DNA from: Thermoanaerobaculia bacterium
GTDB lineage: Bacteria; Acidobacteriota; Thermoanaerobaculia; Gp7-AA8
Assembly (NCBI GenBank): GCA_963715895.1
Contig: OY970284.1
Span: 2,441,484-2,505,483, forward strand
DNA: 64,000 nucleotides
Reading direction: 5' to 3'
Below the pieces are notes generated by a model. The model was not told the DNA's origin. It made no database searches and saw nothing but the letters and a program-made list of their open reading frames with translations. Below are positions 14,988 through 43,335 of this stretch, piece after piece (position 1 is the stretch's first letter; each line of letters opens with the position of its first letter). The position numbers and the translations under genes are program-made.

Positions 14988-15006
14988 GCCGACCTTATAC
15001 ACGGGG

Positions 15007-20182: not shown

Positions 20183-20277
20183 GAAAAATGCGTCCGGTGA
20201 CACCCGTCACATGCCATCGTGACTACCCTCGCCTCCCCGAAAGAGCGTACAAACATACTGTCCACTCGGAGGCAGTC

Positions 20278-23747: not shown

Positions 23748-26700
23748 TCAACCTCTTGGCCGGATGGCGATGGCGGCGGCGATGGCGAGGGTGAGCGCCA
23801 GAAGCATCAATGCGTAGCCGCTCATCGCCGGCACCTCTTCGAGCAGGACGACCGGGGCGGTCGACGAGTTGTTGGCGGGCACCGGATCTGTTTCGTTGCC
23901 CGAGACGGTGGCGGTATTGGTCATCGTTCCGGCCACGTGGCCGGTTCCGTGGATGACGATGGTGGCGGTGGCGCCGTTGGGGATCGTGCCGAGGTTGCAG
24001 GTGACGGTTGTCGTCCCGCTGCAGGAGCCCTGCGTCGGGGTGGCGGTCGCCAGCGTGAAGTTGGCCGGGAGGGGATCGGTGACTACGACGCCGGTGGCAG
24101 TGCTGGGGCCGTGGTTGGTGACGACGAGCGTGTAGTCGAACTGCGACTGCTCGAGCAGCGGAGTCGGTGCCGTCTTGACGATTCCGAGGTCGGCCGATGG
24201 TGTGCCGGTCGTGCCGCCGTTGCCGGTGTTGTCGGTGTTGTTCGCCGGGTTTGGATCGGGCTCGGTCGCTGAGGCGGTGGCGCTGTTGTCGAATGCACCG
24301 GCGGCGGTGATCGTGGCTGTAACGGTGATGGTGACGTTGGCACCCGAGGCAAGGCTGGCGATGGTGCAGGGAAGGGCCGCGCAGCCGCCGCCGGTGACGT
24401 TGGTAATGGTCAGGTTCGTCGGCGTGTCGGTGACCTGGACGTTCGTGGCCGTGGACGGTCCGGCGTTGGCAACGACGATCGTGTAGCTGATGGTCTGGCC
24501 ACTGGTAAAGGGACCCGTCGTCGTCAGCGTCTTGACCAGGGAGACGTCGGCCGATGCCGCGGCGGTACCGCCGTTGCCAGTATTGTCGGTGTTGTTGCCG
24601 CTGTTGGGATCGGGCTCGGTGGCGGAGACGGTGGCGGTGTTGTCGAACGAGCCGGCTGCGTTGATCGTTGCGGTGACGTTGATGGTGACGTTGGCGCCCG
24701 AGGCGAGGCTGGCGATGGTGCAGGGCAGAGCGGCGCAGCCGCCGCCGCTGACGTTGGTGATGGTCATGTGCGTCGGGGTGTCGGTGACCTGGACGTTCGT
24801 GGCGGTGGACGGTCCGGCGTTGGCGACAACGATCGTGTAGCTGATGGTCTGGCCGACGGTGAAGGGACCGGCGGTCGTCAGCGTCTTCACCACGGAAACG
24901 TCGGCGGAGGCGCCGGTGACACCGCCGTTGCCGGTGTTGTCGGTGTTATTGCCCGGATTCGGATCAGGCTCCGTCGCCGACACCGTGGCGCTGTTGTCGA
25001 ACGCGCCGACGGTAGTGATCGTGGCGGTGACGTTGATGGTTACGTTGGCGCCCGAGGCCAGGCTGGCGATCGTGCAGGGGAGAGCGGCGCAGCCGCCACC
25101 GCTGACGGTGTTGATGGTCATGTTCGTCGGCGTATCGGTGACCTGTATGTTCGTGGCGGTGGACGGTCCGGCGTTGGCGACGACGATGGTGTAGCTGATG
25201 GTTTGGCCGGCGGTGAAGGGGCCGGAAGTCGTCAGCGTCTTGACGACGGAGACGTCGGCGGACAAGGTCGCCGTGCCGCCGTTGCCTGTGCTGTCGGTGT
25301 TGTTGTTCGTGTTCGGATCGAACTCCGTTGCCGAGACCGTCGATGTGTTGTCGAACGAGCCGGCGGCGGTGATCGTGGCCGTGACGTTGATGGTGACGTT
25401 CGCTCCGGAGGCCAGGCTGGCGATGGTGCACGGCAGCGCGGCACAACCGCCGCCGCTGACGTTGGTGATGGTCATGTTCGACGGTGTGTCGGTGACCTGA
25501 ACGTTGGTCGCGGTCGACGGACCGGCGTTGGCGACCACGATCGTGTAGCTGATCGACTGGCCTGCGTTGAAGGGGCCGGCGGTGGTCAGCGTCTTGACGA
25601 CCGAGACGTCGGCCGAGGCGACGGCGGTGCCGCCGTTGCCGGTGCTGTCGGTGTTGTTGGCGAGGTTCGGATCGGGCTCGGTCGCCGACACGGTAGAGCT
25701 GTTGTCGAAGGCACCGACGGCGGTGATCGTGGCGGTGACGTTGATCGTCGTATTGGCGCCCGAGGCCAGGCTGGCGATGGTGCAGGGGAGTGCGGCGCAA
25801 CCGCTGCCGCTGACGCTGGTGATGTTCAGGTTCGTTGGCGTGTCGGTGACCTGCACGTTGGTCGCCGTCGACGGTCCGGCGTTGGCCACGACGAGCGTGT
25901 AGCTGATCGACTGGCCGAGCGCGTATGGCCCGGAGGTCACCAGGGTCTTGACGACCGACACGTCGGCGGAGGCCAGGGCGGTGCCGCCGTTGCCGGTGTT
26001 GTCGGTGTTGTTGCCGATGTTCGGATCGGGCTCCGTCGCGGAGACGGTGGCGCTGTTGTTGAACGCCCCGGAGGCGTTGATCGTTGCCGTGACGGTGATG
26101 GTGACGTTGGCCCCCGAGGCCAGGCTGGCGATGGTGCAAGGGAGTGCCGCGCATCCGCCGCCGTTGACGTTTGTGATGGTCAGGTTCGTCGGTGTGTCGG
26201 TGACCTGCACGTTGGTGGCCGTCGACGGACCGGCGTTGGCCACGACGAGCGAGAAGGTGATCGACTCGGTTTCCGTGAACGGCCCGCTGGTGGTCAGCGT
26301 CTTGACCACGGAGACGTCGGCCGAGGCGGCGGCGGTGCCGCCGTTGCCGGTGCTGTCGGTATTGTTCGACGGATCGGGATCGGGCTCCGTGGCCGACACG
26401 GTAGCGGTGTTGTCGAACGAGCCGACGGCTGTGATGGTGGCGGTGACGTTGATGGTCGTGTTGGCGCCCGAGGCCAGGCTGGCGATGGTGCAAGGGAGTG
26501 CGGCGCAACCGCTGCCGCTGACGCTGGTGATGGAGAGGTTCGACGGTGTGTCGGTAACCTGCACGTTGGTGGCCGTCGAGGGGCCGGCATTGGCGACGAC
26601 GATCGTGTAGCTGATCGTTTCGCCGACGGTGAACGGTCCCGCGGTGTCGAGGGTCTTGTCGACCGATACGTCGGCCGAGGCGCCGGTGATGCCGCCGTTG

Positions 26701-29700
26701 CCCGTGTTGTCGGTGTTGTTGCCGGGATTCGGATCGGGCTGCGTTGCCGACACCGTGGCGCTGTTGTCGAAGGCGCCGGGGGAATTGATCGTGGCGGTGA
26801 CGGTGATGGTGGCGTTCCCACCCGCGGCCAGGCTGGCGATGGTGCAGGGGAGGGCCGCGCAGCCGCCGCCGGTAACGTTGGTGATGGTTTCGTTCGTCGG
26901 CGTGTCGGTGACCTGGACGTTGGTCGCGGTGGCCGGACCGGCGTTCGCTACGAAGATGGTGTAGGTGATCGACTGGCCGGAGGTGAAGGGGCCGCTGGTG
27001 GTCAGCGTCTTGACCACGGAGACGTCGGCCGCGGTGGCCAGGATGACCGTCGTGCTGTCGCTGTTCGAATTGACACCCTGCACGGTGGCAGTGGCGGTGT
27101 TCGTCACGGAAGCGTTGGCGATGTCGGTGCCGGTGATGATGTAGGCCGCCGTGCAGGTGATCGACTCGCCGGGATCGAGGAAGTTGTCGAGATCGCCGAC
27201 CGTCGAGACGGCCGGGCAGGTCACGGTGGCCTTGTTGTCGGCGACGGTGACCGGACCCTGGAGCGGTGCGGAGCCGCTGTTCGTCACCAGGTAGTTGTAG
27301 TGAATGGTATCGCCGGGGTTGAGGTAGGTCGTCTCGACGGAGGTCTTGTCGAGCGTCAGGCCGGTGGTGGCGTAGGTGGCGGAGGAGTTGGCGGAGTCGT
27401 GCGGCGTTCCGCTGAACGTTCCGGTGGCGTGGGCCGTGTTCGTGTGCGATCCGGGTGTGATCGCCACCGGGCCGGCCACGCAGGTGATGATGTGGTTGTC
27501 GTTGGCCGCCACGGCCACGGGAAGGGTGACCGAGGCGAATCCGGCGTTGCACCCCGAGACGTCGATGGTGTCGTCGGTGATGCTGATCGGGCTTAGCGGA
27601 ACGTCGCCGGTGTTCTCCACGGTGAAGCGGTAGAAGACCGGGCCGGAGCTGAGCGGGAGGAAGATCGACCAGGGGCCGCTGGCGCTCGCGCTGATCTGTT
27701 TGAGCAGTGAAATGGAAGGATGGGGCGTGCCGGCGTCGAGCGATCCGCTGGCGGTGTTCCCATTCACGGTGGCGGCGTTGATGATGTACGAGACGTTGCC
27801 GCTGGTGTTGTTATAGGTCCCGACCGCGGGGACGGTGACCTGAAGGCTGACGGTGCAGATGCCCCCGCCGGCGATCGTTCCGCCGGAGAACGAGATCGAG
27901 CCGGCGCCGGTGACCGGCGAGAAGCTGGGAGCGCCGCATCCGGACGTCGCCGGCGACGGCGACGGTCCCACCGTCATCGCTCCGGGAGATGTGGGGAAGG
28001 TGTCGGCGAAGGCGACGCCGCTGATGGCGTCGTTCTGATTGGGATTGGTGATGGTGAAGGTCAGGATCGACGTCCCGCCGGCCAGGATCGGCGTCGGATT
28101 GAATCCCTTGGCGATGACCGGCGGGACGAGCGCGGTCAGGGTTGCGCTGCCGACGCTGCTGATGTTCGTCCCGCTCTCGGTCGTCGAGAGGGTGCCGCTG
28201 ACGTTGCCGTGCGGTCCGGCGCTCGTAGCGGTGACGTGGACGCTGACGGTGCACGAGCCGCTGGCGGGGATGGTGCCGCCGCTGAACGTCAGCGACGTTG
28301 CCGCGGCTGCCGGTGCCCAAGTACCGCCGCAAGTCGTGCTGGCAGTCGGCGTAGCCGCGACCTGCACACCCGAGGGGAGCGAGTCGGTGAACGCGGCGCC
28401 GGTGAGCGCGGCCGTGTTCGTATTGGTGAGCGTGAACGTCAGCGTCGAGACTCCGCCGGCCGCCACCGGATTCGGCGAGAAGGCCTTGGCGATGGTCGGT
28501 TGAACCGCGGCCTTGCAGCCGGTGAAGGTGACGTTGTCGATGTTGCTGTCGGAGCCTGCGTTGGTGTTGCCGGAGTTGTACGGATAGATGCGGAAGAAGG
28601 TGAGACCCGACGAATTGAGGCCGCTGTTGACGGTGATCGGGCCGAAGGATTGCCAGGTGTTCGTCGACGTGATGGCGGTGGCGCTGTTGAAGATCGACGC
28701 CGCTGGCTCGCTCGTGCCGGCGCCCTTCGTCGTCGTGCCGAAGAAGACGGCCAGTCCCTTCGGGCCGTTCGGTGTCTTTTCCAGCGCGTCGAAGTTGAGC
28801 GTGACGCTCGATACGCCCGTCGTGTTGATGGCGAACTCGTAGTAGTCGTCGTTCGCCGTGACCAGCGTGGTGCCGGTGGTGATGGCCCCGTTCGATCCCC
28901 ACGACGAGGTGCCGTCAGCAGTCGTCGAGCTGTTCGTCGCCTGGATGGTCGGGTTCGACAGACCGGGGCCGGGCTCGGCCTGCGCGGTGCCGACGTTGTT
29001 CGTCGACGGTGCCGGCGAGGTGAGCGTGAAGCCGGTCGGGAACGTCCACTTGGCCAGCGTCAGACCGCAGAGCCCCGTTCCCGGAGGCGGCGCGGTGTTG
29101 ACCGTCAGCGTCGCCGTGGCGTTGTGGCCGGTGTCGGTGGTGTCGATGAAAAGGTGATTGGTGGTATTGACCAGCGATCCGGTCGCGCTCGGGGTGACGT
29201 TGACCTTGATCACGCAGTTGCTGTTGGCCGCGAGCGTGCCGTTGGAGAACGAGATCGAGCTCGATCCGGCGGTGGCGGTGAGCGTCGGCGCGCCGCATCC
29301 GCTGGTCGTCGCTCCAGCCGGATTGGCAACGAGGAGGTTCGCCGGAAGGTTGTCGACGAAGTTGTAGCCGCCCACCGTGCCGCCGTTCGGATTCGTGAGC
29401 GTGATCGTGAGCGCGGAGACGCCGTTCAGCGACGTGGGGTTGGGGCTGAAGCTCTTGGCGATCGTGGCCGAGGTCGGATCGATGACGTTCGCGATCCGGG
29501 CGCCGGTGGTGAAGTCGCCGTTGTAGTGGTAGCTGCTGCCGGAGAAGTCGTAGAGCAGCGTATTGAGGGGCTGGCTGGTGCCGCCGCCGCTCACGACCTT
29601 GATCGTGTACGTGGTGACGACGTTGTTGCCGCCGGCCTTGAAGTCGCCGCCGACACAGGAGCGGTAGTTGGGGCTGTTGGGATCGTTCTCCCAGAGGCAG

Positions 29701-30419
29701 GAATCGGCGTAGAGCTTGTCGCTCGCGGTGGGGAAGGGGCCCGGAACGAACGGTGAGTCATCGGCGGAGTAGGTCGTCGAAACGGAGAGGACCTGGAAGA
29801 TGGTGTTCGGGAAGTTGATGAAGGCCTCGAACTGGTTGTATCCCTGCGTGGCCGTTCCCCCGAGAAGCTGAATGACGTAGGTGTTGCCGACCACCATGTC
29901 CATCGACCCGCCGGCGGGGACGGAAACGAGGGTGGGGATGGTCGCCCCGAACTTGACGTCGGAGACGGAGTTGCGGTTCTGCGAGATGAGGTGCTCGACG
30001 TAGATCTCGCGCGGTGTCGACGTGGAGATCGTGCCCGAGAGGTCGGTGGCGGTGATGTGGTACCGGCGGGTGGTATCGAATGCCGCCGCGGTCTTGACGA
30101 TAGCCACCTCGAAGAATGCGTCTTTGCACTGGCCGGCAGGGATGGACGGAATGGTGATCGTGGTGAGCGAGCCGGCGCGCAGATCGACGAACGCGTTGGC
30201 CGTGTCCCAGACGTAATTGACGGCGACGTTCGTGGTGGCCACGCTGCTGCAGACGCGCGCGCCGACCGGGAAGTTGCCGGGGCCGGTGGCGGGTGAGTTG
30301 CTGTCGAGTCCGACGACGTTCCAGGATACCGGGGCGATGGTCAGCGTCACCGCGGCGTTCGCGGCAACCGGGGCCAGCAGTGTGAAGAGACACATAGCGA
30401 TCAAAGAGATACGGCGCAT
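23748..30419 (-). CDS. giant (2223 aa) secreted cell-surface protein with about 12 tandem DUF11 ('conserved repeat domain') repeats and an IPTL-CTERM-like C-terminal sorting signal
   Basis: Signal peptide MRRISLIAMCLFTLLAPVAANA. About 118-aa units (VSVVKTLTTSGPFT.GQ.ISYTIVVANAGPSTATNVQVTDTP...GGGCAALPCTIASLASGAN.TI.VTATI...) repeated with near-identical 354-bp DNA period between about 24100 and 26950. C-terminus VPAMSGYALMLLALTLAIAAAIAIRPRG. Confidence 0.85.
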   Translation of the reverse strand: MRRISLIAMCLFTLLAPVAANAAVTLTIAPVSWNVVGLDSNSPATGPGNFPVGARVCSSVATTNVAVNYVWDTANAFVDLRAGSLTTITIPSIPAGQCKDAFFEVAIVKTAAAFDTTRRYHITATDLSGTISTSTPREIYVEHLISQNRNSVSDVKFGATIPTLVSVPAGGSMDMVVGNTYVIQLLGGTATQGYNQFEAFINFPNTIFQVLSVSTTYSADDSPFVPGPFPTASDKLYADSCLWENDPNSPNYRSCVGGDFKAGGNNVVTTYTIKVVSGGGTSQPLNTLLYDFSGSSYHYNGDFTTGARIANVIDPTSATIAKSFSPNPTSLNGVSALTITLTNPNGGTVGGYNFVDNLPANLLVANPAGATTSGCGAPTLTATAGSSSISFSNGTLAANSNCVIKVNVTPSATGSLVNTTNHLFIDTTDTGHNATATLTVNTAPPPGTGLCGLTLAKWTFPTGFTLTSPAPSTNNVGTAQAEPGPGLSNPTIQATNSSTTADGTSSWGSNGAITTGTTLVTANDDYYEFAINTTGVSSVTLNFDALEKTPNGPKGLAVFFGTTTKGAGTSEPAASIFNSATAITSTNTWQSFGPITVNSGLNSSGLTFFRIYPYNSGNTNAGSDSNIDNVTFTGCKAAVQPTIAKAFSPNPVAAGGVSTLTFTLTNTNTAALTGAAFTDSLPSGVQVAATPTASTTCGGTWAPAAAATSLTFSGGTIPASGSCTVSVHVTATSAGPHGNVSGTLSTTESGTNISSVGSATLTALVPPVIAKGFNPTPILAGGTSILTFTITNPNQNDAISGVAFADTFPTSPGAMTVGPSPSPATSGCGAPSFSPVTGAGSISFSGGTIAGGGICTVSLQVTVPAVGTYNNTSGNVSYIINAATVNGNTASGSLDAGTPHPSISLLKQISASASGPWSIFLPLSSGPVFYRFTVENTGDVPLSPISITDDTIDVSGCNAGFASVTLPVAVAANDNHIITCVAGPVAITPGSHTNTAHATGTFSGTPHDSANSSATYATTGLTLDKTSVETTYLNPGDTIHYNYLVTNSGSAPLQGPVTVADNKATVTCPAVSTVGDLDNFLDPGESITCTAAYIITGTDIANASVTNTATATVQGVNSNSDSTTVILATAADVSVVKTLTTSGPFTSGQSITYTIFVANAGPATATNVQVTDTPTNETITNVTGGGCAALPCTIASLAAGGNATITVTATINSPGAFDNSATVSATQPDPNPGNNTDNTGNGGITGASADVSVDKTLDTAGPFTVGETISYTIVVANAGPSTATNVQVTDTPSNLSITSVSGSGCAALPCTIASLASGANTTINVTATITAVGSFDNTATVSATEPDPDPSNNTDSTGNGGTAAASADVSVVKTLTTSGPFTETESITFSLVVANAGPSTATNVQVTDTPTNLTITNVNGGGCAALPCTIASLASGANVTITVTATINASGAFNNSATVSATEPDPNIGNNTDNTGNGGTALASADVSVVKTLVTSGPYALGQSISYTLVVANAGPSTATNVQVTDTPTNLNITSVSGSGCAALPCTIASLASGANTTINVTATITAVGAFDNSSTVSATEPDPNLANNTDSTGNGGTAVASADVSVVKTLTTAGPFNAGQSISYTIVVANAGPSTATNVQVTDTPSNMTITNVSGGGCAALPCTIASLASGANVTINVTATITAAGSFDNTSTVSATEFDPNTNNNTDSTGNGGTATLSADVSVVKTLTTSGPFTAGQTISYTIVVANAGPSTATNIQVTDTPTNMTINTVSGGGCAALPCTIASLASGANVTINVTATITTVGAFDNSATVSATEPDPNPGNNTDNTGNGGVTGASADVSVVKTLTTAGPFTVGQTISYTIVVANAGPSTATNVQVTDTPTHMTITNVSGGGCAALPCTIASLASGANVTINVTATINAAGSFDNTATVSATEPDPNSGNNTDNTGNGGTAAASADVSLVKTLTTTGPFTSGQTISYTIVVANAGPSTATNVQVTDTPTNLTITNVTGGGCAALPCTIASLASGANVTITVTATITAAGAFDNSATASATEPDPNPANNTDNTGNGGTTGTPSADLGIVKTAPTPLLEQSQFDYTLVVTNHGPSTATGVVVTDPLPANFTLATATPTQGSCSGTTTVTCNLGTIPNGATATIVIHGTGHVAGTMTNTATVSGNETDPVPANNSSTAPVVLLEEVPAMSGYALMLLALTLAIAAAIAIRPRG

Positions 30420-30711
30420 AGATGGACCTCGCAAATGCCAATACCGGGTGCTGGAAGCTGGACAAATAGCCAGCGCACTCCCCCGGCTGGTTATGGGAAA
30501 ACGATTTTGGACCCGCGTCACTGTAACCGGTTCCAATCACAGTGCCGTCAATCCTGAATGATGAGACCGTGAAAATCGGTGCGGCCAGGGTTCTGCGTGG
30601 CAGAACGATCGAGCGAAGAGGTTGGCCGAGCCTTTGGCAACCAGCGAAGCCGGCCGTGCCGGCCCTACCCGCCCTTGATACCCTCCCTACCCCGTGGGGT
30701 GGCGTGCGGCA

Positions 30712-32370: not shown

Positions 32371-32460
32371 GTGTGATCCCCATCACCCGCCCCCTTGACG
32401 CGCGTCATCCGTCGCTGTTCGTGCGCGACGTACCTTGCAGTTCGAAGGAGACGCGCCGCC

Positions 32461-35400
32461 ATGTCGCTCGCCGAAGTCCTCAATCCGCATCAGAAAGCAC
32501 CGCAGAAGAACGTCGTCGAATACGCGATGGTCGACGGCAACGAAGCCGTGGCCCGCATCGCCTACGCGATGAACGAAGTGATCGCCATCTATCCGATCAC
32601 GCCATCCTCCTCGATGGGTGAATGGGCGGATGCCTGGTCGGCGGCAAAGCAGAAGAATCTCTGGGGGACGATTCCGGCGGTCGTGGAGATGCAGAGCGAG
32701 GGGGGCGCGGCGGGAGCGGTGCATGGCGCGTTGCAGACCGGATCGCTTGCCACGACCTTCACCTCGTCGCAGGGCCTGCTGCTGATGATCCCGAATATGT
32801 ACAAGATCGCCGGCGAGCTCACCCCGGCGGTGTTCCATGTCGCGGCGCGCTCCCTGGCCACGCACGCGTTGTCGATCTTCGGCGATCACTCCGACGTGAT
32901 GTCGGTCCGCTCGACCGGCTGGGTGATGCTCTGCTCGGCCAGCGTTCAGGAAGCACAGGATTTCGCCATGATCGCGCACGCCGCCACGCTAGAGGCGCGC
33001 ATCCCCTTCCTGCATTTCTTCGACGGCTTCCGCACGTCGCACGAGATCGCCCGGATCGAAGTGCTTTCCGAGGATCAGATGAGGGCGATGATCGACCTCG
33101 AGCTGGTCTTCGATCACCGCTCCCGCGCCCTGTCGCCCGATCATCCGGTCATCCGCGGTACGGCGCAGAACCCGGATGTCTTCTTCCAGTCGCGGGAACG
33201 GTCCAATCCGTTCTATCGCGACTGCGCATCGATCGTCGTCGAGACGATGGAGCGCTTCGCGCGCGTCACCGGCCGCGCCTACGCGCCGTTCGAATATCAC
33301 GGTGATCCTGTAGCTGAGCGCGTAGTGATCGTCCTCGGCTCGGCCGCCGAGACGCTGCATGAGACCGTCGACGTGTTGCGGGATCAGGGAGAACGCGTCG
33401 GCGTGCTGAAGGTGCGGCTCTATCGCCCCTTCGACAACCAACGCTTCCTCGATGCACTGCCGGAGTCGGCCCGCGCCATCGCCGTGCTCGACCGCACCAA
33501 GGAGCCCGGCGCCGCTGGTGAGCCGCTCTATCTCGACGTCGTCAACGCTCTCTTCGACTCCGACCGCCGCCCGCGCGTGATCGGCGGACGCTACGGCCTC
33601 TCCTCGAAGGAGTTCACTCCGGCCATGGCCAAAGGCGTTTTCGATCATCTCCTCGACCCCAAGCCGCGGAAACAGTTCACCGTGGGGATCGTCGACGACG
33701 TGACGCACCTGAGCATCGACTACGACCGGGCGTTTTCTACTGAGACCACTGACGTCTACCGCGCCATGTTCTACGGACTGGGGTCGGACGGCACGGTCGG
33801 CGCGAACAAGAACACCATCAAGATCATCGGCGAGGAGGGTGGCCGCTTCGCGCAGGGCTACTTCGTCTACGACTCGAAAAAAGCGGGGGCGATCACGGTG
33901 TCGCACCTTCGTTTCGGACCTCGGCCGATCCGCTCGACGTATCTGGTCACCAGCGCGAACTTCATCGCCTGCCACCAGCCACAGTTCGTCGAACGCGTCG
34001 ACATGCTGAAGGACCTGGCGCCGGGCGGGACGTTCCTGCTCAACGCGCCGGCGGGTTTCATTCTGCCGCGCACGTTCGCGGCGCAGTTGGCCGCGAAGAA
34101 GGCACGCGTCTTTGCCATCGACGCCACGCGCGTGGCCGCCGAGTGCGGCCTCGGCAACCGCATCAATACTCTGATGCAGGTCTGCTTCTTTGCCACCGCC
34201 GAGGTGCTGCCGATCGAGGAGGCGCTGGAAGCCGTCCGCGAGACCATCCGCAAGACCTACGCGAAGAAGGGCGAGAAGGTCGTGGCCATGAATCTCCGCG
34301 CGGTCGACGCCGCGCTGCAGAGTCTGCGTCCGATCGCGATCGACACGGAAGCACAGACAAGAGTGTCTGTGCCACAAGAGACAGGAGTGTCTGTGTCACA
34401 AAAGGAGAGCCAATGTGGCACAGACACTCTTGTCTGTGCCGGGCCGCTCCGCGACGTCATCCTGCCGATCATCGAAGGCCGCGGTGAGGATCTCCCGGTC
34501 AGCGCCATGCCGTGCGACGGCACGTTCCCTTCCTCCACCGCGCGCTACGAGAAGCGCAACCTCGCCACCGAGATCCCGGTGTGGGATCCGGTCTCCTGCA
34601 TCCAGTGCGGCAAGTGTGCGATGGTCTGTCCGCACGCGGCCATCCGGATCAAGGCCTATGACCAGTCGCTGCTGGAAGGCGCGCCGGCCACGCTCAAGTC
34701 GCTGACGCCGATGCACAAGGATTGGGCAGGGCTGGCGTACACCATCCAGGTCGCACCGGAGGACTGCACCGGTTGCACGATCTGCGTCGACGTCTGCCCG
34801 GCCAAGAGCAAGAGCGTTCCAGACCGCAAGTCGCTTTACATGCAGCCGCAGCCGCCGCTGCGCGATGCGGAGCGCGAGAACTGGAACTGGTTCCTCGATC
34901 TGCCGGAGCTCGACCGATCGAAACTCAATCCGACGCTGATCCGGCATCAGCAGCTCCAACAGCCGATGTTCGAGTTCTCCGGCGCCTGCTCCGGCTGCGG
35001 CGAGACGCCGTATGTAAAGCTGCTCACACAGCTCTTCGGCGACCGCCTGGTCGTGGCCAATGCCACCGGCTGCTCGTCGATCTACGGCGGCAATCTGCCG
35101 ACGACGCCCTGGTCGACGAACCGTGACGGCCGCGGCCCCGCCTGGGCGAACTCCCTCTTCGAGGACAACGCCGAGTTCGGCCTCGGCTTCCGCGTTTCGA
35201 TCGACAAACAGCGTGACTTTGCCATCGAGCTGCTGAAGTCTCTCGCCCCCGCCGTCGGCGAGAACCTGGCGGCCTCGATCATCGATGCCACCCAGCGCGA
35301 CGATGCCGAGATCTTCGAGCAGCGCAAGCGCGTCGAGCTGCTCAAAGTCGCTCTGCGCCGCCTGGAGCTGAAGACCCGGATGCACAAGCTCGATCCGACC

Positions 35401-36087
35401 GACGAGCAACAGCTCCTGGCGCTGGCCGACTTGCTCGTTAAAAAGTCCGTGTGGATCCTCGGCGGCGATGGCTGGGCCTACGACATCGGCTTTGGCGGAC
35501 TCGATCACGTCCTGGCCAGCGGCCGGAACGTGAAGGTGCTCGTCCTCGACACCGAGGTCTATTCGAACACTGGCGGACAGATGTCGAAGGCGACCCCCCG
35601 CGCGGCCGTGGCCAAGTTCGCCGCCGGCGGCAAGGCCGCCAGGAAGAAGGACCTCGGCCTGATCGCGATGACGTACGGGCACGTCTATGTCGCCAGCGTG
35701 GCCATGGGCGCGCGTGACGAGCACACGCTCAAATCGTTCATCGAAGCCGAGGCGTATGACGGCCCGTCGCTGATCATCGCCTACAGCGCCTGTGTCGCCC
35801 ACGGCTACGATCTGGGGACATCGCTGCAGCACCAGAAGACGCTGGTCGAATCCGGCCAGTGGCTGCTCTACCGCTACAACCCCGAGCGCACCGCTGAAGG
35901 CAAGAACCCGCTCCAGCTCGACTCGCGCGCCCTCAAGCTCCCCGTCGAGAAGTTCCTTCGGATGGAGAACCGCTTCAACCAACTGCTGAAGAACGACACC
36001 GAGGAATCCCGCAACGTGATCGCCGCCGCGCAGCACGACGTCGACGCACGGTGGAAGATGTACAGCTATTTGGCGGCGGAGAAGTGA
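32461..36087 (+). CDS. por: pyruvate:ferredoxin (flavodoxin) oxidoreductase, single-chain NifJ/Por type (1208 aa)
   Basis: Domains I-III, two ferredoxin-type 4Fe-4S motifs (CIQCGKCAMVCP, CTGCTICVDVCP), TPP-binding GDGWAYDIGFGGLDHVLASGRNVKVLVLDTEVYSNTGGQ. Start at ATG 32461 (MSLAEVLNPHQKAPQKNVVEYAMVDGNE). Confidence 0.9.
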   Translation: MSLAEVLNPHQKAPQKNVVEYAMVDGNEAVARIAYAMNEVIAIYPITPSSSMGEWADAWSAAKQKNLWGTIPAVVEMQSEGGAAGAVHGALQTGSLATTFTSSQGLLLMIPNMYKIAGELTPAVFHVAARSLATHALSIFGDHSDVMSVRSTGWVMLCSASVQEAQDFAMIAHAATLEARIPFLHFFDGFRTSHEIARIEVLSEDQMRAMIDLELVFDHRSRALSPDHPVIRGTAQNPDVFFQSRERSNPFYRDCASIVVETMERFARVTGRAYAPFEYHGDPVAERVVIVLGSAAETLHETVDVLRDQGERVGVLKVRLYRPFDNQRFLDALPESARAIAVLDRTKEPGAAGEPLYLDVVNALFDSDRRPRVIGGRYGLSSKEFTPAMAKGVFDHLLDPKPRKQFTVGIVDDVTHLSIDYDRAFSTETTDVYRAMFYGLGSDGTVGANKNTIKIIGEEGGRFAQGYFVYDSKKAGAITVSHLRFGPRPIRSTYLVTSANFIACHQPQFVERVDMLKDLAPGGTFLLNAPAGFILPRTFAAQLAAKKARVFAIDATRVAAECGLGNRINTLMQVCFFATAEVLPIEEALEAVRETIRKTYAKKGEKVVAMNLRAVDAALQSLRPIAIDTEAQTRVSVPQETGVSVSQKESQCGTDTLVCAGPLRDVILPIIEGRGEDLPVSAMPCDGTFPSSTARYEKRNLATEIPVWDPVSCIQCGKCAMVCPHAAIRIKAYDQSLLEGAPATLKSLTPMHKDWAGLAYTIQVAPEDCTGCTICVDVCPAKSKSVPDRKSLYMQPQPPLRDAERENWNWFLDLPELDRSKLNPTLIRHQQLQQPMFEFSGACSGCGETPYVKLLTQLFGDRLVVANATGCSSIYGGNLPTTPWSTNRDGRGPAWANSLFEDNAEFGLGFRVSIDKQRDFAIELLKSLAPAVGENLAASIIDATQRDDAEIFEQRKRVELLKVALRRLELKTRMHKLDPTDEQQLLALADLLVKKSVWILGGDGWAYDIGFGGLDHVLASGRNVKVLVLDTEVYSNTGGQMSKATPRAAVAKFAAGGKAARKKDLGLIAMTYGHVYVASVAMGARDEHTLKSFIEAEAYDGPSLIIAYSACVAHGYDLGTSLQHQKTLVESGQWLLYRYNPERTAEGKNPLQLDSRALKLPVEKFLRMENRFNQLLKNDTEESRNVIAAAQHDVDARWKMYSYLAAEK
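34351..34440. repeat. inverted pair of the 24/30-nt hairpin element inserted in-frame inside the por coding sequence
   Basis: 34351-34373 gcacagacaagagtgtctgtgcc; 34411-34440 caatgtggcacagacactcttgtctgtgcc; degenerate third copy 34381-34399. Translated as ...EAQTRVSVPQETGVSVSQKESQCGTDTLVCAG... without stop or frameshift. Confidence 0.8.
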
Positions 36088-36194
36088 GGGGGGCGGTGGA
36101 TTAGTGGATCAGGTTCCGGCCCCGTATTCGAGAAAACGTAGGTCGGACTCTCTAGGCCGACCGGTGCTCGCGCGGGCCGATCGCTCCAACCGCA

Positions 36195-36575
36195 TTCTTC
36201 ACGAGCGGTCGTGTAGCCTCCAGAGCCTCATGGGTGTGGCTTGAAGCCTCTCAGGGTGGACTCTGAGCCTCCTCCATGACGCTTTAGGCCTACCCCATGA
36301 GGCGTCGAGCCTCCTCAGTAGATCCATGGATCTACCCAAGTGGGCTCTAAGCCTACCCCATGAGGCTGTAGGTCTCTTCAGTAGATCCATGGATCTACTC
36401 AAATAGGCTTTAAGCCTACCCCATGAGGCTTTAAGCTTTAAGCCTATTCGGTAGATCCATGGATCTACACCATGAGGCTTAAAGCCTACCCTATGAGGCT
36501 TGAAGCCTATTCAGTAGATCCTGGGATCTACTCGAGACGAAAAAAAGCCTATTCAGTAGATTCAGAATCTACTCG
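36195..36575. repeat. array of about 6 units (about 63 bp) each carrying an 18-bp palindrome GTAGATCCATGGATCTAC and a second IR AAGCCTaccccatgAGGCTT
   Basis: Perfect palindromes at 36318-36335, 36381-36398, 36451-36468; variants at 36514-36531 and 36555-36571. In the convergent por / 36562 gene intergenic, bordering the low-GC islet. Confidence 0.75.
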
Positions 36576-37080
36576 ACTGCCGATTCGAGCCTCTCGCACG
36601 CGGGAACACCAACCCCGTCACGAGGTCGCCGGCCACTGCATCGCCATCGACAGTCCAGGCACTTCCGCCAGCTCCTCGGGCGTGCGCCGACGCCACGCCT
36701 TCCAGCTCCCGCGTCAGCACCGCATCGACCGACGTCCCCTCCCGCCGCGCCAGAGCCCGCAGCACGTCCCGCTGATACCGCGGAACTCGCGCCCGCAGCT
36801 CCACCAGCCGGATCGCCTCCGGCAGCACCGACGGCGCATCCTTCCCGAGCGCAGCTTCGATGACGGACTGCTCGTACTTCTGCATCGCCACCGCCACCAG
36901 CTCCTCCCTCGTCATCCGCTCGCCGAGCGCGGTCCAAACCGCTACAATCGCTCCATCCTCGATCTCCCGTTTCAGATCCCTGAGGGTGAGCCCAAGCAGA
37001 TCCGCCGCCGTCATGAGCGCGAAGTTGGGACGGGGAGCGAGGAAGATGTGATGGATGCGGGAGCGGGTGGATTCGTCCAT
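36562..37080 (-). CDS. hypothetical protein (possible small HTH / antitoxin-like helical protein)
   Basis: 172-aa ORF with genome-typical codon bias; segment AADLLGLTLRDLKREIEDG resembles an HTH. 3' end overlaps the palindrome array. No firm family assignment. Confidence 0.4.
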   Translation of the reverse strand: MDESTRSRIHHIFLAPRPNFALMTAADLLGLTLRDLKREIEDGAIVAVWTALGERMTREELVAVAMQKYEQSVIEAALGKDAPSVLPEAIRLVELRARVPRYQRDVLRALARREGTSVDAVLTRELEGVASAHARGAGGSAWTVDGDAVAGDLVTGLVFPRARGSNRQSSRF

Positions 37081-37114: not shown

Positions 37115-38224
37115 TTAGTCCGCCGCCGAGTTGTTATCTGCAGTAGGCCAGCGAGTGCTCGAGTAGCCCACGTGCGATCGTTGCGGAACGCGACGCTTTC
37201 CCGGGTCGAAGGGATACCACTCGACTTTCTTCGCGACCATGAGTGAAACGAGAGGCAAGCATAGAGGCTCACCTAAGTTGCGCCGAATGTGGGCGAGCAG
37301 GAAAGCGACCGACGCCGACGCGTTCAGCCATTCGGCAACATCTTCAATCGTAAACGCCAACGCAGGTGGATCAAAATGTGCGAAATGATTTCGAACGTCT
37401 TTGAGGCGAATGAACTGATTGATTTCGCCTGGACATTTCTCGAGAGGCTTTCCCGTGATCTTGCCGACCCATCTCAACTTGTCGCGTATGCTTTGCCCAT
37501 GAGTCGGGCCGAGTGACTCTGGGTCGAACGTCCATCCATGGCTCGCGGCCTCGTACTTCGCCCGGTAATAGAGTTGATGCAGCGTGTTATCTACGGCCGC
37601 GACCACTGTGCTGAAATAGGCGAACAGTTCGCGAAGCCACTCGTCCTCGAACATCAAGTCTGACCGCTCGACAAGGTTCCTGTATATCTCCATCCAGGCT
37701 TGCAGCAATACCAGTTGAAGAGAGGAGAACGCCCGTCCTTCACGATCGAGCTGTGGTACAACAGGAAACGAGTCGGAAACTGCGGTCGGAAACATGAACG
37801 TAAGCGCTTCATCAAGCTTTTCGTTGCACGGCGCGTGAAATTTTGGCGCGGCAGCAACGGACGCGTCAAGCCAACCTGAGATGAGCGGTGGAAAGTTGAA
37901 ACGGCCGGGATCGAATGTCTGATGATCTGCTAGCTGATCGCAAATCGACTGCCAGCGAAACGGACGCGTGATCTGTTGCGTTTTCTCACGTTTCCATCTG
38001 AACACCAGCCAATCAGCCTCTCTCCATTTCGTGAAGGACATTGTCTGTTTGTAGTACGACTCAAGAATCATCGAAGTCGTGGCGCGAACGCGCGCCTTGT
38101 CCGGAGGTCCTATCTGAAAACGAAGAGGATAGTACGTGCCCCGCGTGGCTAAAGGACTCGTAGTCATGTCGTACGTGAGTTCGTCATCCATCGAGACGAA
38201 TTGTATGAGATTGCGGGCTTCCAT
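37115..38224 (-). CDS. hypothetical 369-aa protein in low-GC islet; carries an R-N-x-x-A-H motif (DVRNHFAHF) like HEPN / AbiD-AbiF (Abi_2) abortive-infection proteins
   Basis: GC about 50-55% versus about 68% for neighbours. Motif RNHFAH about 100 aa from the C-terminus. No other recognisable domain. Family assignment is inference only. Confidence 0.5.
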   Translation of the reverse strand: MEARNLIQFVSMDDELTYDMTTSPLATRGTYYPLRFQIGPPDKARVRATTSMILESYYKQTMSFTKWREADWLVFRWKREKTQQITRPFRWQSICDQLADHQTFDPGRFNFPPLISGWLDASVAAAPKFHAPCNEKLDEALTFMFPTAVSDSFPVVPQLDREGRAFSSLQLVLLQAWMEIYRNLVERSDLMFEDEWLRELFAYFSTVVAAVDNTLHQLYYRAKYEAASHGWTFDPESLGPTHGQSIRDKLRWVGKITGKPLEKCPGEINQFIRLKDVRNHFAHFDPPALAFTIEDVAEWLNASASVAFLLAHIRRNLGEPLCLPLVSLMVAKKVEWYPFDPGKRRVPQRSHVGYSSTRWPTADNNSAAD

Positions 38225-39156: not shown

Positions 39157-39230
39157 GGCAACAGGGCGAGTTGTTTGGAGTTTGGGCCGTATCTGGAAAA
39201 TCAATTTAGCTGGCGGCCCCCAATCCAAGT

Positions 39231-39515
39231 TTACATTGAATTCCAGGCATCCACACCAGATCCATCAGCGACGCACCTATCCAGTGCCTCGAGCGCTTCA
39301 GCAGTCGAAATGGGATTGCGGCGCTCGGCTCTACGGAGCAATCTCGAAACCGCCCTCCTCCGACCGGCTGGGTCGTTGATAGGGCGGTGCTCACGGTGTG
39401 CCTCCGCAAGAGCGGCTCGGCGAACAAAGGAGCTACGCGTCTCGCCGGCCTTGCGTGCCGCAGCGTCAATGACCCGGAGATCGGTCTCGGGCAGTGAAAC
39501 GAGAACCTTGCGCAT
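39231..39515 (-). CDS. ribbon-helix-helix (CopG/antitoxin-like) DNA-binding protein
   Basis: MRKVLVSLPETDLRVIDAAARKAGETRSSFVRRAALAEA = RHH signature. Start at ATG 39515. Confidence 0.55.
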   Translation of the reverse strand: MRKVLVSLPETDLRVIDAAARKAGETRSSFVRRAALAEAHREHRPINDPAGRRRAVSRLLRRAERRNPISTAEALEALDRCVADGSGVDAWNSM

Positions 39516-39531
39516 CCAAATAGTATATCTA

Positions 39532-39543
39532 ACGGATATCCGT
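39532..39543. promoter_or_regulatory. perfect palindrome ACGGATATCCGT in an AT-rich stretch 17-28 bp upstream of the RHH gene; candidate autoregulatory operator
   Basis: Sequence aaatagtatatctaACGGATATCCGTagagg; RHH repressors typically bind such inverted repeats. Confidence 0.3.
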
Positions 39544-39622
39544 AGAGGTTGGTTCTTCCGCTTCGCGCCTTCGCGGCTTCGCGTGAGATCGATGTTCACG
39601 CGAAGCGCAGATATCCACTGCC

Positions 39623-39889
39623 TCACACCATCGCGCAACGCGCTTCCGTCGCGATCGGATCCTCACCTGCTTCCGTGAGGATGATCTCGTACAGTGCGAG
39701 CGTGTCGGCGATGAGGGCGTCGTCGATGCGGCGTACGGCGTGGCCTTCATGTTCGAGGATGTAGTCGCCGACGGCGAGCTCCCCGTGGAGCAGGTCGAGC
39801 TGCACTTCGCGGGTCATGCCCCAGAAATCACATTCGACGACTGTTTCATCGATGAACCGGACAATCTGGCCAGGAGCTCCGAGACACAT
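39623..39889 (-). CDS. hypC: HypC/HybG/HupF-family [NiFe]-hydrogenase maturation chaperone (orphan)
   Basis: Begins MCLGAPGQIVRF... (conserved N-terminal Cys2 of HypC); 88 aa; ...GDYILEHEGHAVRRIDDALIADTLALYEIIL. No other hyp/hydrogenase genes in the window. Confidence 0.75.
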   Translation of the reverse strand: MCLGAPGQIVRFIDETVVECDFWGMTREVQLDLLHGELAVGDYILEHEGHAVRRIDDALIADTLALYEIILTEAGEDPIATEARCAMV

Positions 39890-43136: not shown

Positions 43137-43335
43137 GTTGTCGGTTATCGGGGCGGTTATCGGTTATCGGTTGTCGGTTGTCTGGGGCGCGGTAGGTAGA
43201 AGGGTGGGGAATCGGAGTTTCGGATCACACCAACGTCTGACCTCCGACAACCGACAACCGACAACCGACAACCGACAACCGACAACCGACAACCGACAAC
43301 CGATAACCGACAACCGACAACCGATAACCGATAAC
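43137..43335. repeat. large inverted repeat whose arms are tandem CGGTTRT / YAACCGA heptamers (about 5 on left, 12 consecutive on right) separated by about 63 bp
   Basis: Left gttgtcggttatcggggcggttatcggttatcggttgtcggttgtc. Right gacaaccga(caaccga)x6 taaccgacaaccgacaaccgataaccgataaccgacgac. Same heptamer as the cheR-cheB hairpin. Confidence 0.8.

What the first reader, a model, noticed from the sequence alone, without database searches (positions are those of the whole stretch)
36195..36575. Array of 18-bp perfect palindromes GTAGATCCATGGATCTAC with about 63-bp periodicity
At least three perfect and two variant copies, each preceded by a second IR AAGCCT-N8-AGGCTT, form a degenerate tandem array in a convergent intergenic region. 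Both palindromes are centred on CCATGG/CATG. This looks like an iteron-like binding-site array, satellite or relic of an integrative element rather than a terminator (no T-runs).
Basis: seen in the sequence. Interest (0 to 1): 0.5.

Follow-up and report, generated by a model that had tools for sequence, protein, structure and literature searches.

The report
Phased palindrome array beside defence-gene switch
The palindrome array is real. It is one partly decayed copy of a fast-evolving 21-bp-period repeat array that, in soil Thermoanaerobaculia, usually lies just downstream of a conserved, unnamed DNA-binding protein gene next to swappable anti-phage defence genes; what it does is still unproven.

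Summary
There are three perfect GTAGATCCATGGATCTAC copies and two variants, interleaved with AAGCCT-N8-AGGCTT hairpins, and none in 100 shuffles. The array is not an isolated decayed duplication.

- **Adjacent gene.** The ORF at 36562..37080(-) belongs to an unnamed family with about 670 hits, mostly Thermoanaerobaculia. Its AlphaFold2 model (pLDDT 93) shows an excisionase/BldC-type winged helix plus a ribbon-helix-helix.
- **Array association.** 41 of 60 metagenome loci with enough downstream DNA carry a tandem array of period 21 or a multiple. There are more than 60 such TRF rows in 169 kb downstream and at most one in 214 kb upstream.
- **Array variability.** The unit sequences are unrelated between loci. 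Only the period and the dyad symmetry recur. Copy number varies (9-15) between strains with the same or nearly the same protein.
- **Wider module.** At least 65 of 80 loci have a divergent XRE repressor gene followed by a different defence gene (SIR2, GmrSD, DRT, AbiU, TIR, nSTAND and others).
- **This window's copy.** It has lost the XRE gene and the promoter and carries a frameshift.

The best-supported reading is a helically phased DNA platform for the adjacent protein (confidence 0.35). The rivals are a transcribed BIME-like hairpin array and a neutral satellite. It is not a canonical iteron, centromere, CRISPR array or terminator.

The parts
36088..36620 (-). Whole intergenic repeat region, from the family-frame stop of the adjacent gene to the PFOR stop. 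It is read on the strand of the 172-aa gene.
   Evidence: It folds far better than shuffles as RNA (-208 kcal/mol, z = -10.1) and as DNA (z = -11.4). GC falls to 46-50 % against about 63-67 % in the flanks.
36318..36335 (.). Perfect 18-bp palindrome GTAGATCCATGGATCTAC
36381..36398 (.). Perfect 18-bp palindrome GTAGATCCATGGATCTAC
36451..36468 (.). Perfect 18-bp palindrome GTAGATCCATGGATCTAC
36514..36531 (.). Variant palindrome GTAGATCCTGGGATCTAC (2 mismatches). This gene-proximal copy is conserved in L004, L007, L017 and other loci.
36556..36572 (.). Variant 17-bp palindrome GTAGATTCAGAATCTAC, the most gene-proximal copy
36286..36305 (.). Short hairpin unit, variant (AGGCCT-ACCCCATG-AGGCGT)
36349..36368 (.). 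Short hairpin unit, variant (AAGCCT-ACCCCATG-AGGCTG)
36412..36431 (.). Short hairpin unit AAGCCT-ACCCCATG-AGGCTT. It is a 21-bp unit, as in L004, L007 and L017.
36482..36501 (.). Short hairpin unit AAGCCT-ACCCTATG-AGGCTT
36540..36546 (-). T7 run on the gene strand between the two proximal palindromes. It is conserved in L004 and L017.
36141..36162 (.). REP-like hairpin GGTCGGACTCTCTAGGCCGACC that closes the array. The same element also occurs as an inverted doublet at 12283-12367.
   Evidence: In related loci it was found 10 times downstream and 0 times upstream of the gene.
36562..37080 (-). Gene for the Xis-type winged-helix plus ribbon-helix-helix protein (172 aa here). An extra C in the run at 36678-36680 shifts the C-terminal frame; the family-frame stop is the TGA at 36618-36620.
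37115..38224 (-). orf369, a low-GC, uncharacterised cargo-type gene that occupies the place of the XRE plus defence-gene cassette of related loci
32395..36087 (+). Pyruvate:ferredoxin oxidoreductase gene, the convergent core-genome neighbour that marks the orthologous locus in L013, L017, L018, L022 and L086-L089

Best explanation
**What it is.** The array is this genome's copy of a lineage-wide cis element. That element is a rapidly turning-over array of dyad-symmetric units held to a 21-bp period, about two turns of B-DNA (42- and 63-bp higher-order units here). It lies in the 3' flank of a conserved gene for a protein of about 150 aa.

**The adjacent protein.** The protein combines an excisionase/BldC/MerR-type winged helix with a ribbon-helix-helix.

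**Proposed mechanism.** The protein would act as a ribbon-helix-helix dimer carrying two winged helices. It would nucleate on the gene-proximal GTAGA...TCTAC palindromes and assemble cooperatively along the phased units. The result would be a higher-order nucleoprotein array that serves as an architectural or titrating sink.

**The wider module.** The gene is one half of a divergent XRE/Xis-RHH switch. That switch flanks an exchangeable single-gene anti-phage defence cassette.

**This window's copy.** It looks partly decayed: the XRE gene and the promoter are lost, the C-terminus is frameshifted, and the array is short.

**Shown:**
- the anatomy of the array;
- the association of 21-bp-period arrays with the gene;
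- the constant period with unrelated unit sequences;
- copy-number variation between strains;
- the fold of the protein;
- the XRE plus variable-defence-gene context.

**Inferred:** that the protein binds the array at all, and what that binding achieves.
For: 1. **Synteny.** L004 (a Thermoanaerobaculia MAG) has an 86 %-identical gene followed by the same palindromes, 21-bp hairpin units and terminal hairpin.
2. **Specific association.** Across 80 loci, TRF rows with period 21, 41-44, 63-65, 83-85, 106 or 127 numbered more than 60 in 169 kb downstream of the gene and at most one in 214 kb upstream. 41 of 60 loci with at least 600 bp downstream have such an array.
3. **A ruler, not a sequence.** At least 17 unrelated unit consensus sequences share the period. 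No k-mer is shared beyond chance, while dyad symmetry is enriched: mean best stem 5.85 against 3.78 in shuffles, maximum 4.5. Higher-order periods of 43, 64, 85, 106 and 127 (21n+1) break the reading frame, so the arrays are not coding, and they keep the mean period near 21.2-21.3 bp.
4. **Protein fold.** The AlphaFold2 model has pLDDT 93 and pTM 0.81.
   - C-domain matches: CopG/StnY 6.4, PutA RHH 6.4, omega 5.0.
   - From prior knowledge, several of these relatives are described as binding phased DNA repeats cooperatively.
5. **Core conservation.** Palindrome cores are invariant while linkers vary (0 of 18 against 13 of 24 variable columns, p = 1e-4).
6. **Covarying residues.** The only alignment columns that separate loci with GTAGA..TCTAC palindromes from the rest are W49 and E54, in the wing of the winged helix. 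This is confounded by phylogeny.
7. **No fixed strand polarity.** L004's main array is inverted relative to the window's, and L048 and L064 carry both orientations.
Against: - There is no binding data.
- The winged-helix region and the predicted ribbon strand of the ribbon-helix-helix are highly conserved across loci whose arrays share no sequence. Sequence-specific reading of every array by this protein is therefore impossible; it would need shape or structure recognition, or nucleation plus spreading.
- Distant homologs (33-52 % identity) keep the XRE partner but show no clear 21-bp array, and 19 of 60 closer loci lack one. The array is therefore dispensable for the protein.
- The array lies downstream of a strong promoter-like site with no terminator before it. 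It also shows a weak sense-strand G.U-type bias: 32 of 46 arrays fold better in sense (p = 0.011), and G.T exceeds A.C mismatches in 19 arrays against 6 (p = 0.015). This fits a transcribed RNA element.
- Arm spacing within units is not a constant 10.5 bp.
Confidence: 0.35

Rival explanations
1. Transcribed hairpin array, BIME-like. The array would be the structured 3' end of the transcript driven by the strong XRE-controlled promoter. Stacked RNA hairpins would stabilise the mRNA and/or stop read-through into the convergent neighbour. No dedicated DNA-binding partner would be involved.
For: - A TTGACA-16/17-TAATAT/TAACAT promoter-like site points into the gene, and 63 of 80 loci have TTGAC[AGT] within 90 bp upstream.
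- No intrinsic terminator lies between the gene and the array.
- Folding is extreme (z = -10).
- There is a weak sense-strand G.U bias.
- The units are inverted arms in alternating orientation with two kinds of spacer. The array sits at the 3' end of a gene in a convergent gap and ends in a dispersed REP-like hairpin, as in E. coli BIMEs.
- TA genes are sometimes inserted between the gene and the array, as if the array marked the end of the operon.
Against: - An RNA role gives no reason for a strict 21-nt period across unrelated units.
- The polarity of the units relative to the gene is not conserved (L004 against the window; L048 and L064 carry both orientations).
- The G.U bias is small and could result from transcription-coupled deamination.
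- In the window, other hairpin arrays use 7-8-bp units rather than 21, and the non-21n arrays flanking the related loci show no preferred period.
- No Rfam family matches.
Confidence: 0.3
2. Selectively neutral satellite. Replication slippage and quasi-palindrome (hairpin-templated) correction would seed and expand hairpin repeats from REP-like elements at a recombination-prone flank of a gene-exchange hotspot. The array would have no function.
For: - Turnover is rapid. There are 9, 10, 11, 13 or 15 copies of one unit in strains with the same or nearly the same protein, and 0 in the window.
- Arrays are very homogeneous internally.
- Arrays are absent from 19 of 60 loci and from distant homologs.
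- The genome carries many other hairpin-forming tandem arrays.
- Many contigs break inside the arrays.
Against: - Neutral slippage does not explain the same 21-bp period arising independently in at least 17 unrelated units.
- It does not explain the restriction of these arrays to one side of one gene family.
- It does not explain palindrome cores being conserved relative to linkers.
Confidence: 0.2
3. Relic or functional end of a mobile element. The array would be an att-arm or oriT-like region where an excisionase or relaxosome-accessory-type protein bends DNA for a recombinase or relaxase supplied in trans.
For: - The protein has an excisionase fold plus a ribbon-helix-helix, as in recombination directionality factors and in TraM/TraY.
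- The module is multi-copy, sits in different genomic contexts and carries different cargo, including at the same hypC-PFOR locus.
- L013, L017 and L018 have a 199-bp duplication of the PFOR 3' end.
Against: - No integrase or relaxase was called within 8 kb in the orthologous loci.
- There are no relatives in phage, plasmid or IMG/VR collections.
- No matching repeat was found at the other end of the cassette: 0 REP-like hairpins and at most one 21n array upstream.
Confidence: 0.1
4. Repeat-RNA effector. This would be a type III antitoxin-like array or a phased 21-nt guide-RNA precursor, processed into units that act with the neighbouring defence gene.
For: - The period is constant while the sequence varies, as in ToxI-type arrays.
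- The array is adjacent to defence genes.
Against: - The array lies downstream of, not upstream of, its partner gene.
- The partner has a DNA-binding fold, not that of an endoribonuclease.
- The defence cargo is unrelated from locus to locus.
- The window's array has no such partner at all.
Confidence: 0.05

Closest known systems
BIME/REP clusters of enterobacteria and pseudomonads
   Same: - Both are extragenic and lie at the 3' end of genes, often in convergent gaps.
- Both consist of palindromic units in alternating orientation with short and long linkers.
- Copy number varies between strains.
- A dispersed REP-like hairpin (GGTCGGACT..AGTCCGACC) closes the array here.
   Different: - The units are locus-specific rather than genome-wide.
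- The period is strictly 21 bp.
- The arrays are tied to one gene family.
- No RAYT transposase has been identified.
Plasmid centromere arrays bound by small RHH or wHTH proteins (parC/ParR, omega heptads, pSK1 Par, sopC 43-bp repeats)
   Same: - Both are tandem, helically phased, often dyad-symmetric repeats.
- Both lie next to the gene of a small DNA-binding protein.
- That protein has a ribbon-helix-helix and/or a winged helix.
   Different: - No ParA, ParM or TubZ partner is present.
- The module is chromosomal and multi-copy.
- The array sequence does not track the protein sequence.
- The array sits beside defence cassettes.
Cooperative Xis/RDF/BldC assemblies on phased sites (lambda and L5/Pukovnik attR, RdfS filaments, BldC head-to-tail oligomers)
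   Different: - Known sites are few (2-7) and are direct repeats.
- Here there are up to about 18 dyad units of 21 bp.
- No integrase or att core is present.
- The protein carries an extra ribbon-helix-helix domain.
Iterons of theta-replicating plasmids
   Same: Both are roughly 21-22-bp-period repeat arrays next to the gene of a DNA-binding protein.
   Different: - No Rep-family protein is present.
- No AT-rich DNA-unwinding region or DnaA boxes were identified.
- The units are palindromic.
- The unit sequences are not conserved among homologous proteins.
Type III toxin-antitoxin repeat RNAs (ToxI and relatives)
   Same: Both are tandem arrays with a fixed period and a sequence that varies between homologous loci, in a defence context.
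   Different: - The array follows the gene instead of preceding it.
- The partner is a DNA-binding fold rather than an RNase.
- There are far more copies.
- Unit orientation is variable.

Membership tests
Plasmid iterons / oriV | Adjacent gene encodes a Rep-type initiator | tested here: not met
   There is no significant Pfam, NCBIfam or PHROG hit. The fold is an Xis-type winged helix plus a ribbon-helix-helix.
Plasmid iterons / oriV | Repeat sequence specific to, and co-conserved with, its initiator | tested here: not met
   Proteins 60-90 % identical have arrays with no shared 9-mers. No motif is shared among 20 unit types.
Plasmid iterons / oriV | Direct repeats with a period of about 17-22 bp | tested here: met
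   The period is 21 bp or a multiple, in the window (42, 63) and in 41 of 60 related loci. The units are dyad-symmetric, however.
Partition centromere (parC/parS/sopC type) | Partner NTPase (ParA, ParM or TubZ) in the same operon | tested here: not met
   The neighbours are an XRE gene, defence genes and core genes. No NTPase partner was called.
Partition centromere (parC/parS/sopC type) | Small RHH or HTH centromere-binding protein encoded next to a phased repeat array | tested here: inconclusive
   The fold and the adjacency fit. Binding has not been tested.
REP/BIME | The same palindromic unit dispersed many times through the genome | tested here: not met
   The 18-mer occurs only at this locus in the 64-kb window. 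In 185,579 species' genomes it gave 5 hits, only one of them a true relative. Only the terminal GGTCGGACT hairpin is dispersed, with 3 copies in the window. The complete source genome could not be searched.
REP/BIME | Clustered units in alternating orientation in extragenic 3' regions | tested here: met
REP/BIME | Cognate RAYT (Y1 transposase) in the genome | not testable with these tools
   Only 64 kb of the roughly 6.6-Mb genome is available.
CRISPR array | Identical direct repeats separated by unique spacers of similar length | tested here: not met
   The intervals between palindromes are themselves repeated hairpin units and linkers. In related loci the units abut without spacers.
Intrinsic terminator | GC-rich hairpin directly followed by a U-tract | tested here: not met
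   The scan found 0 sites in the window region and 0 in L017 and L024. The T7 run lies 9 nt after an AT-rich palindrome.
Type III TA antitoxin array | Repeats upstream of, and co-transcribed with, an endoribonuclease toxin gene | tested here: not met
   The array is downstream of a gene for a DNA-binding-fold protein. The next gene is convergent.
Excisionase (RDF) arm sites of an integrative element | Excisionase-fold protein | tested here: met
Excisionase (RDF) arm sites of an integrative element | Integrase gene and att core/duplication bounding the element | tested here: not met
   No integrase was called within 8 kb in L086-L089. No matching repeat lies on the other side of the cassette.
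Known RNA families (Rfam 15) | Match at or above the gathering score | tested here: not met
   Only sub-threshold matches to eukaryotic miRNA-precursor hairpins were found (31 bits against a gathering score of 100).

The most novel reading that the evidence does not exclude
The XRE / Xis-RHH pair with its 21-bp-phased, sequence-hypervariable dyad array would be a previously undescribed platform for holding and exchanging single-gene anti-phage defence cassettes. In this reading the array is a structure-read (not sequence-read) nucleoprotein or cruciform scaffold. It would either set the firing threshold of the switch by titrating the protein, or serve as the recombination anchor that lets cassettes be swapped at the 5' end of the conserved gene.
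Probability: 0.15. Interest if true: 0.85.

Novelty: new variant of a known kind. Interest (0 to 1): 0.55.

Why it matters
If the array really is the cis partner of the Xis-RHH protein, three things follow.

- **A new module.** It would define a new regulatory or architectural module that accompanies a very diverse set of defence genes in an abundant, uncultured soil lineage. The cargo seen here includes SIR2, GmrSD, a DRT reverse transcriptase, AbiU/AIPR, a Pycsar-type TIR, nSTAND3, an AAA_15/21 ATPase, Mrr, DUF4407 and DUF6602. The conserved gene plus array could then serve as a genomic signpost for finding new defence genes; orf369 and several cargo genes with no family match are candidates.
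- **A natural ruler.** It would be a case where only a helical ruler (21 bp) and dyad symmetry are conserved while the sequence is free. That makes the question of shape versus sequence read-out directly testable.
- **Practical consequences.** The arrays behave as VNTRs and break short-read assemblies of these genomes.

If the array is only a BIME-like 3' hairpin stack or a satellite, it is of modest interest.

Tried and rejected
**Searches that found nothing useful**
- Rfam at permissive thresholds gave only sub-threshold miRNA-like hairpins.
- Pfam, NCBIfam, PHROGs and PDB sequence searches of the 172-aa protein gave nothing significant.
- The first AlphaFold2 run on a shallow alignment gave pLDDT 56 and was unusable. 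It was rescued by adding distant homologs.
- Viral-contig scans for two palindromes and for the protein found nothing. One scan failed for lack of conserved columns.
- PLSDB and INPHARED searches found no match.
- An exact look-up of the window's own protein contig was not on record.
- The second protein-database search with a profile returned only close relatives.
- Four literature searches returned no description of such arrays.

**Hypotheses rejected**
- Coding heptad repeats are rejected: units of 20-22 bp and 21n+1 higher-order periods break the frame.
- The arrays are not decoys for the XRE repressor. Its locus-specific operators at the promoter do not resemble the array units, and array similarity does not track XRE identity.
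- There is no universal short motif in the units.
- A CCATGG restriction-modification signature is rejected.

**Inconclusive tests**
- Per-position conservation within long arrays was uninformative, because the arrays are too homogeneous.
- The sense/antisense folding and wobble tests are only weakly significant and do not decide between DNA- and RNA-level function.
Full report
**1.

- The window contains perfect GTAGATCCATGGATCTAC at 36318, 36381 and 36451, a 2-mismatch copy at 36514, and a 17-bp variant (GTAGATTCAGAATCTAC) at 36556-36572. None of 100 shuffles gave any match.
- TRF reports 36281-36531 as a 63-bp array with 3.9 copies and score 271.
- Each palindrome is preceded by a short hairpin of the type AAGCCT-ACCCCATG-AGGCTT. 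It is perfect at 36412 and 36482, with variants at 36286 and 36349.
- Read on the strand of the neighbouring gene, the region follows a simple grammar. AGGCTT and AAGCCT arms alternate, and the gap between them is one of two kinds:
  - an 8-nt loop, giving a 21-bp unit;
  - the 18-bp palindrome with its flanks, giving a roughly 40-bp extended palindrome and a 42-bp unit.
- The 63-bp period is therefore 42 + 21. The one 70-bp interval comes from a 7-bp micro-duplication at 36428-36443.
- GC falls to 46-50 %.
- The region folds far better than shuffles, as RNA (z = -10.1) and as DNA (z = -11.4).
There is a T7 run on the gene strand at 36540-36546, but no canonical terminator is detected.
- In the three youngest units the palindrome has 0 of 18 variable columns, against 13 of 24 in the linkers (p = 1e-4).

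**2. It is not an isolated duplication**

- The exact 18-mer is rare. It gave 5 hits in one genome per 185,579 species, near my chance estimate of about 9.
- One hit (L004, a Thermoanaerobaculia MAG) shows the same arrangement in mirror image:
  - a gene 86 % identical to the window ORF 36562..37080(-);
  - then GTAGATCC-type palindromes at about 41-bp spacing;
  - then 8.5 copies of a 21-bp hairpin unit (AAGCCAC-ACCCCG-GTGGCTT);
  - then a conserved terminal hairpin.
- The ORF belongs to an unnamed family of about 670 database clusters, mostly from Thermoanaerobaculia and often several per MAG. A profile search finds 576 clusters at 50 % identity.

**3. The association between gene and array is specific, and what is conserved is a ruler**

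- I fetched 80 metagenome loci encoding homologs of 61-92 % identity and ran TRF on all of them.
- TRF rows with period 21, 41-44, 63-65, 83-85, 106 or 127 numbered more than 60 in 169 kb downstream of the gene. At most one (period 85) was found in 214 kb upstream.
- 41 of 60 loci with at least 600 bp of downstream DNA have such an array within 1.5 kb.
- The unit sequences are unrelated. At least 17 different 21-mers occur, with no k-mer shared beyond chance.
- Dyad symmetry is clearly enriched: mean best stem 5.85 against 3.78 in shuffles, never above 4.5.
- Higher-order periods of 43, 64, 85, 106 and 127 (21n+1) exclude a coding heptad and keep the mean period near 21.2-21.3 bp.
- Arrays turn over quickly. 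In orthologous loci sharing the same convergent PFOR gene and the same or nearly the same protein, one unit (GAGTCyAyGATCAGACTC) is present 15, 9, 10, 13 and 11 times. It is absent from the window, which has instead amplified the 63-bp palindrome-plus-hairpin unit.
- Many contigs end inside the arrays.
- The array is closed by a REP-like hairpin (GGTCGGACT-N4-AGTCCGACC; window 36141-36162). This hairpin is itself a dispersed element: it forms an inverted doublet at 12283-12367, and in related loci it occurs 10 times downstream and 0 times upstream of the gene.

**4. The neighbouring protein**

- Sequence libraries give nothing significant.
- With distant homologs added to the alignment, AlphaFold2 gives a confident model (pLDDT 93, pTM 0.81). 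It shows a beta-alpha-alpha-beta-beta winged helix at about residues 19-68, a long helix, an extended segment at residues 86-100, and further helices.
- They place the C-domain with ribbon-helix-helix proteins: CopG/StnY 6.4, PutA 6.4, TacA, ParD, TraM, Arc and omega 5.0.
- From prior knowledge, several of these relatives are described as assembling cooperatively on phased DNA repeats.
- The window's copy has one extra C in the run at 36678-36680, which shifts the C-terminal frame. The family-frame stop is at 36618-36620. P0002/L007 shares this frame.

**5. The wider module**

- At least 65 of the 80 loci have a divergently transcribed XRE-family HTH gene about 90 bp upstream.
- 63 of 80 have a TTGAC[AGT] -35 element within 90 bp upstream of the gene. 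In L017 and L024 the scan finds TTGACA-16/17-TAATAT/TAACAT, at 10 of 12 matches.
- In the loci inspected by eye, a locus-specific palindromic operator lies over the -10 element and the transcription start. These operators do not resemble the array units, and array similarity does not follow XRE identity.
- The gene after XRE is different almost everywhere and is typically an anti-phage defence gene. Cargo genes seen are:
  - nSTAND3/PDC-S73;
  - an AAA_15/21 ATPase (PDC-M55A);
  - GmrSD (HEC-06);
  - SIR2;
  - AbiU/AIPR;
  - DRT RT_UG13a;
  - a CAP12/Pycsar TIR;
  - Mrr_cat;
  - DUF4407 and DUF6602;
  - several with no family.
- At the same chromosomal site (hypC ... PFOR), related strains carry different cargo. 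L086 has a 154-aa protein that looks nuclease-like by eye, L052 has a 341-aa protein, and the window has orf369 and orf258.
- TA pairs are sometimes inserted between the gene and the array.
- Distant homologs (33-52 % identity) keep the XRE partner but have no clear 21-bp array. In L096/L097 a homolog of the window's orf369 is the XRE-side cargo next to a 37 %-identical family member.
- The XRE/Xis-RHH pair is therefore the older unit, and the 21-bp array is an addition in the clade of closer homologs.
- The window's copy lacks the XRE gene and the promoter, and orf369 points into the gene. It looks rearranged and partly decayed.

**6. How it most likely works**

The constant period of about 21 bp across unrelated, mostly dyad-symmetric units points to a physical ruler, and two turns of B-DNA is the obvious one. 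The adjacent gene encodes a protein with two DNA-binding domains.

My preferred reading (confidence 0.35) is a cis-acting DNA platform:

- Ribbon-helix-helix-mediated dimers would nucleate on the gene-proximal GTAGA...TCTAC palindromes. These are the only part shared by all homologs of at least about 84 % identity.
- They would then assemble along the phased units, acting as an architectural element or a titrating sink within the XRE-controlled switch.

Two weak supports exist:

- The only protein columns that separate loci with these palindromes from the rest are W49 and E54, in the wing of the winged helix. This is confounded by phylogeny.
- Unit polarity relative to the gene is not conserved.

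The main objections are these:

- The protein's DNA-reading parts are conserved while the arrays are not, so any binding beyond the proximal palindromes must be shape-based or must work by spreading.
- Arrays are missing from a third of the loci.
- There is no binding data.

**7. Rivals**

- **Transcribed, BIME-like hairpin stack at the 3' end of the promoter-driven transcript (0.30).**
  - For: no terminator lies before the array, folding is extreme, and there is a weak sense-strand G.U-type bias. 32 of 46 arrays fold better in sense (p = 0.011), and G.T exceeds A.C mismatches in 19 arrays against 6 (p = 0.015).
  - Against: it does not explain the fixed period or the variable polarity.
- **Neutral satellite produced by slippage and hairpin-templated correction (0.20).**
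  - For: the VNTR behaviour and the many other hairpin arrays in this genome.
  - Against: it does not explain the period or the one-sided association with one gene family.
- **Relic or cis site of a mobile element (0.10).** No integrase was called nearby, no second boundary repeat was found, and there are no phage or plasmid relatives.
- **Repeat-RNA effector of type III-antitoxin or guide type (0.05).** Gene order and protein fold argue against it.

**8. Comparison with known systems and novelty**

- The array resembles BIMEs in anatomy.
- It resembles plasmid centromeres and Xis/BldC arrays in its pairing with a phased-repeat-binding fold.
- It resembles iterons only in period.
- It fails defining tests for each of these (see the membership table).
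- I found no description of the protein family, of the arrays, or of their link to defence cassettes in Pfam, NCBIfam, PHROGs, PADLOC, Rfam or the searchable literature.
- I rate it a new variant of a known kind: a phased repeat array coupled to a small DNA-binding protein. Its unusual property is that period and symmetry are conserved while sequence is not, and its genomic context in a defence-cassette hotspot is interesting.

**9. Verdict**

The finding is real and more interesting than a decayed duplication, but its function is unproven and this window's copy is probably degenerate. Interest is 0.55.

Noticed in passing
window 2156-2236, 15002-15160, 20113-20182, 43137-43343, 59065-59168, 61103-61189, 61690-61782; also L004 4296-4441 and L096 3526-3588: Inverted pairs of short tandem arrays (7-10-bp units, for example GTTGTCG x7 facing CCGACAA x14) lie in intergenic DNA. 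Each pair would form a long hairpin whose stem is built of tandem heptamers. They are frequent in this genome and its relatives, and their role is unknown; they might be terminators or insulators.
   Followed up: partly
window 23084-23369: Two adjacent tandem arrays of 42 bp (x3.7) and 44 bp (x2.8) lie between convergent genes 20188..22959(+) and 23748..30536(-). No Xis-RHH homolog is nearby. Arrays with roughly 2 x 21-bp units are therefore not wholly exclusive to the module.
   Followed up: partly
window 12283-12304 and 12346-12367: An inverted doublet of the REP-like hairpin GTAGGTCGGACT-N4-AGTCCGACC lies in an intergenic gap. The same element closes the palindrome array at 36141-36162 and the arrays in several related loci. 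It is probably a dispersed REP/REPIN-type element of this lineage.
   Followed up: partly
window 37115-38224 (-): orf369 has 52-57 % GC in a genome of 63-67 %, with no Pfam, PADLOC or PDB match. By eye it has an Rx4H motif (VRNHFAH) reminiscent of HEPN. It has 33 homologs, and in L096/L097 its homolog is the cargo behind an XRE gene next to a 37 %-identical Xis-RHH family member. It is a candidate new defence gene.
   Followed up: partly
window 36678-36680: One extra C relative to L017 shifts the C-terminal frame of the Xis-RHH gene, so the ORF reads through into the first palindrome. L007/P0002 shares the shifted frame, so it is probably a real variant and not a sequencing error.
   Followed up: yes
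window 24211-27038, inside ORF 23748..30536 (-): A 354-bp repeat in 8 copies (82 % matches) lies inside a 2262-aa secreted or surface protein with repeated domains.
   Followed up: no
whole window: GATC is 2.8-fold over-represented (601 observed, 216 expected) and CTAG about 15-fold under-represented (14 observed, 216 expected). CCATGG is near expectation (15 observed, 21.6 expected). Arrays in related loci are nevertheless rich in ACTAGT.
   Followed up: no
L017/L018 5270-5670 and L013: A 199-bp tandem duplication includes the last 34 codons of the PFOR gene and its downstream hairpin, just beyond the end of the array.
   Followed up: no
L002 1-98 (Rubrobacteraceae MAG contig start): The same 18-mer sits at the centre of a perfect palindrome of about 98 bp at the very start of a contig. 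It is unrelated to the module. It is either an assembly fold-back artefact or a hairpin end.
   Followed up: no
window 39231-39638 (-): An RHH/HicB-like antitoxin ORF (Pfam HicB_lk_antitox E = 6e-5, RHH_1 E = 1.5e-3, both below the curated cut-offs) lies between the cargo genes and hypC. It overlaps the longer but probably spurious + strand ORF 39175..39678.
   Followed up: partly
L031, L034, L015, L040, L020, L035 (0-700 bp downstream of the gene): Toxin-antitoxin pairs are inserted between the Xis-RHH gene and its 21-bp array, so both flanks of the conserved gene accept insertions. By eye they are AbrB/VapB-type, HicAB and VapBC.
   Followed up: no
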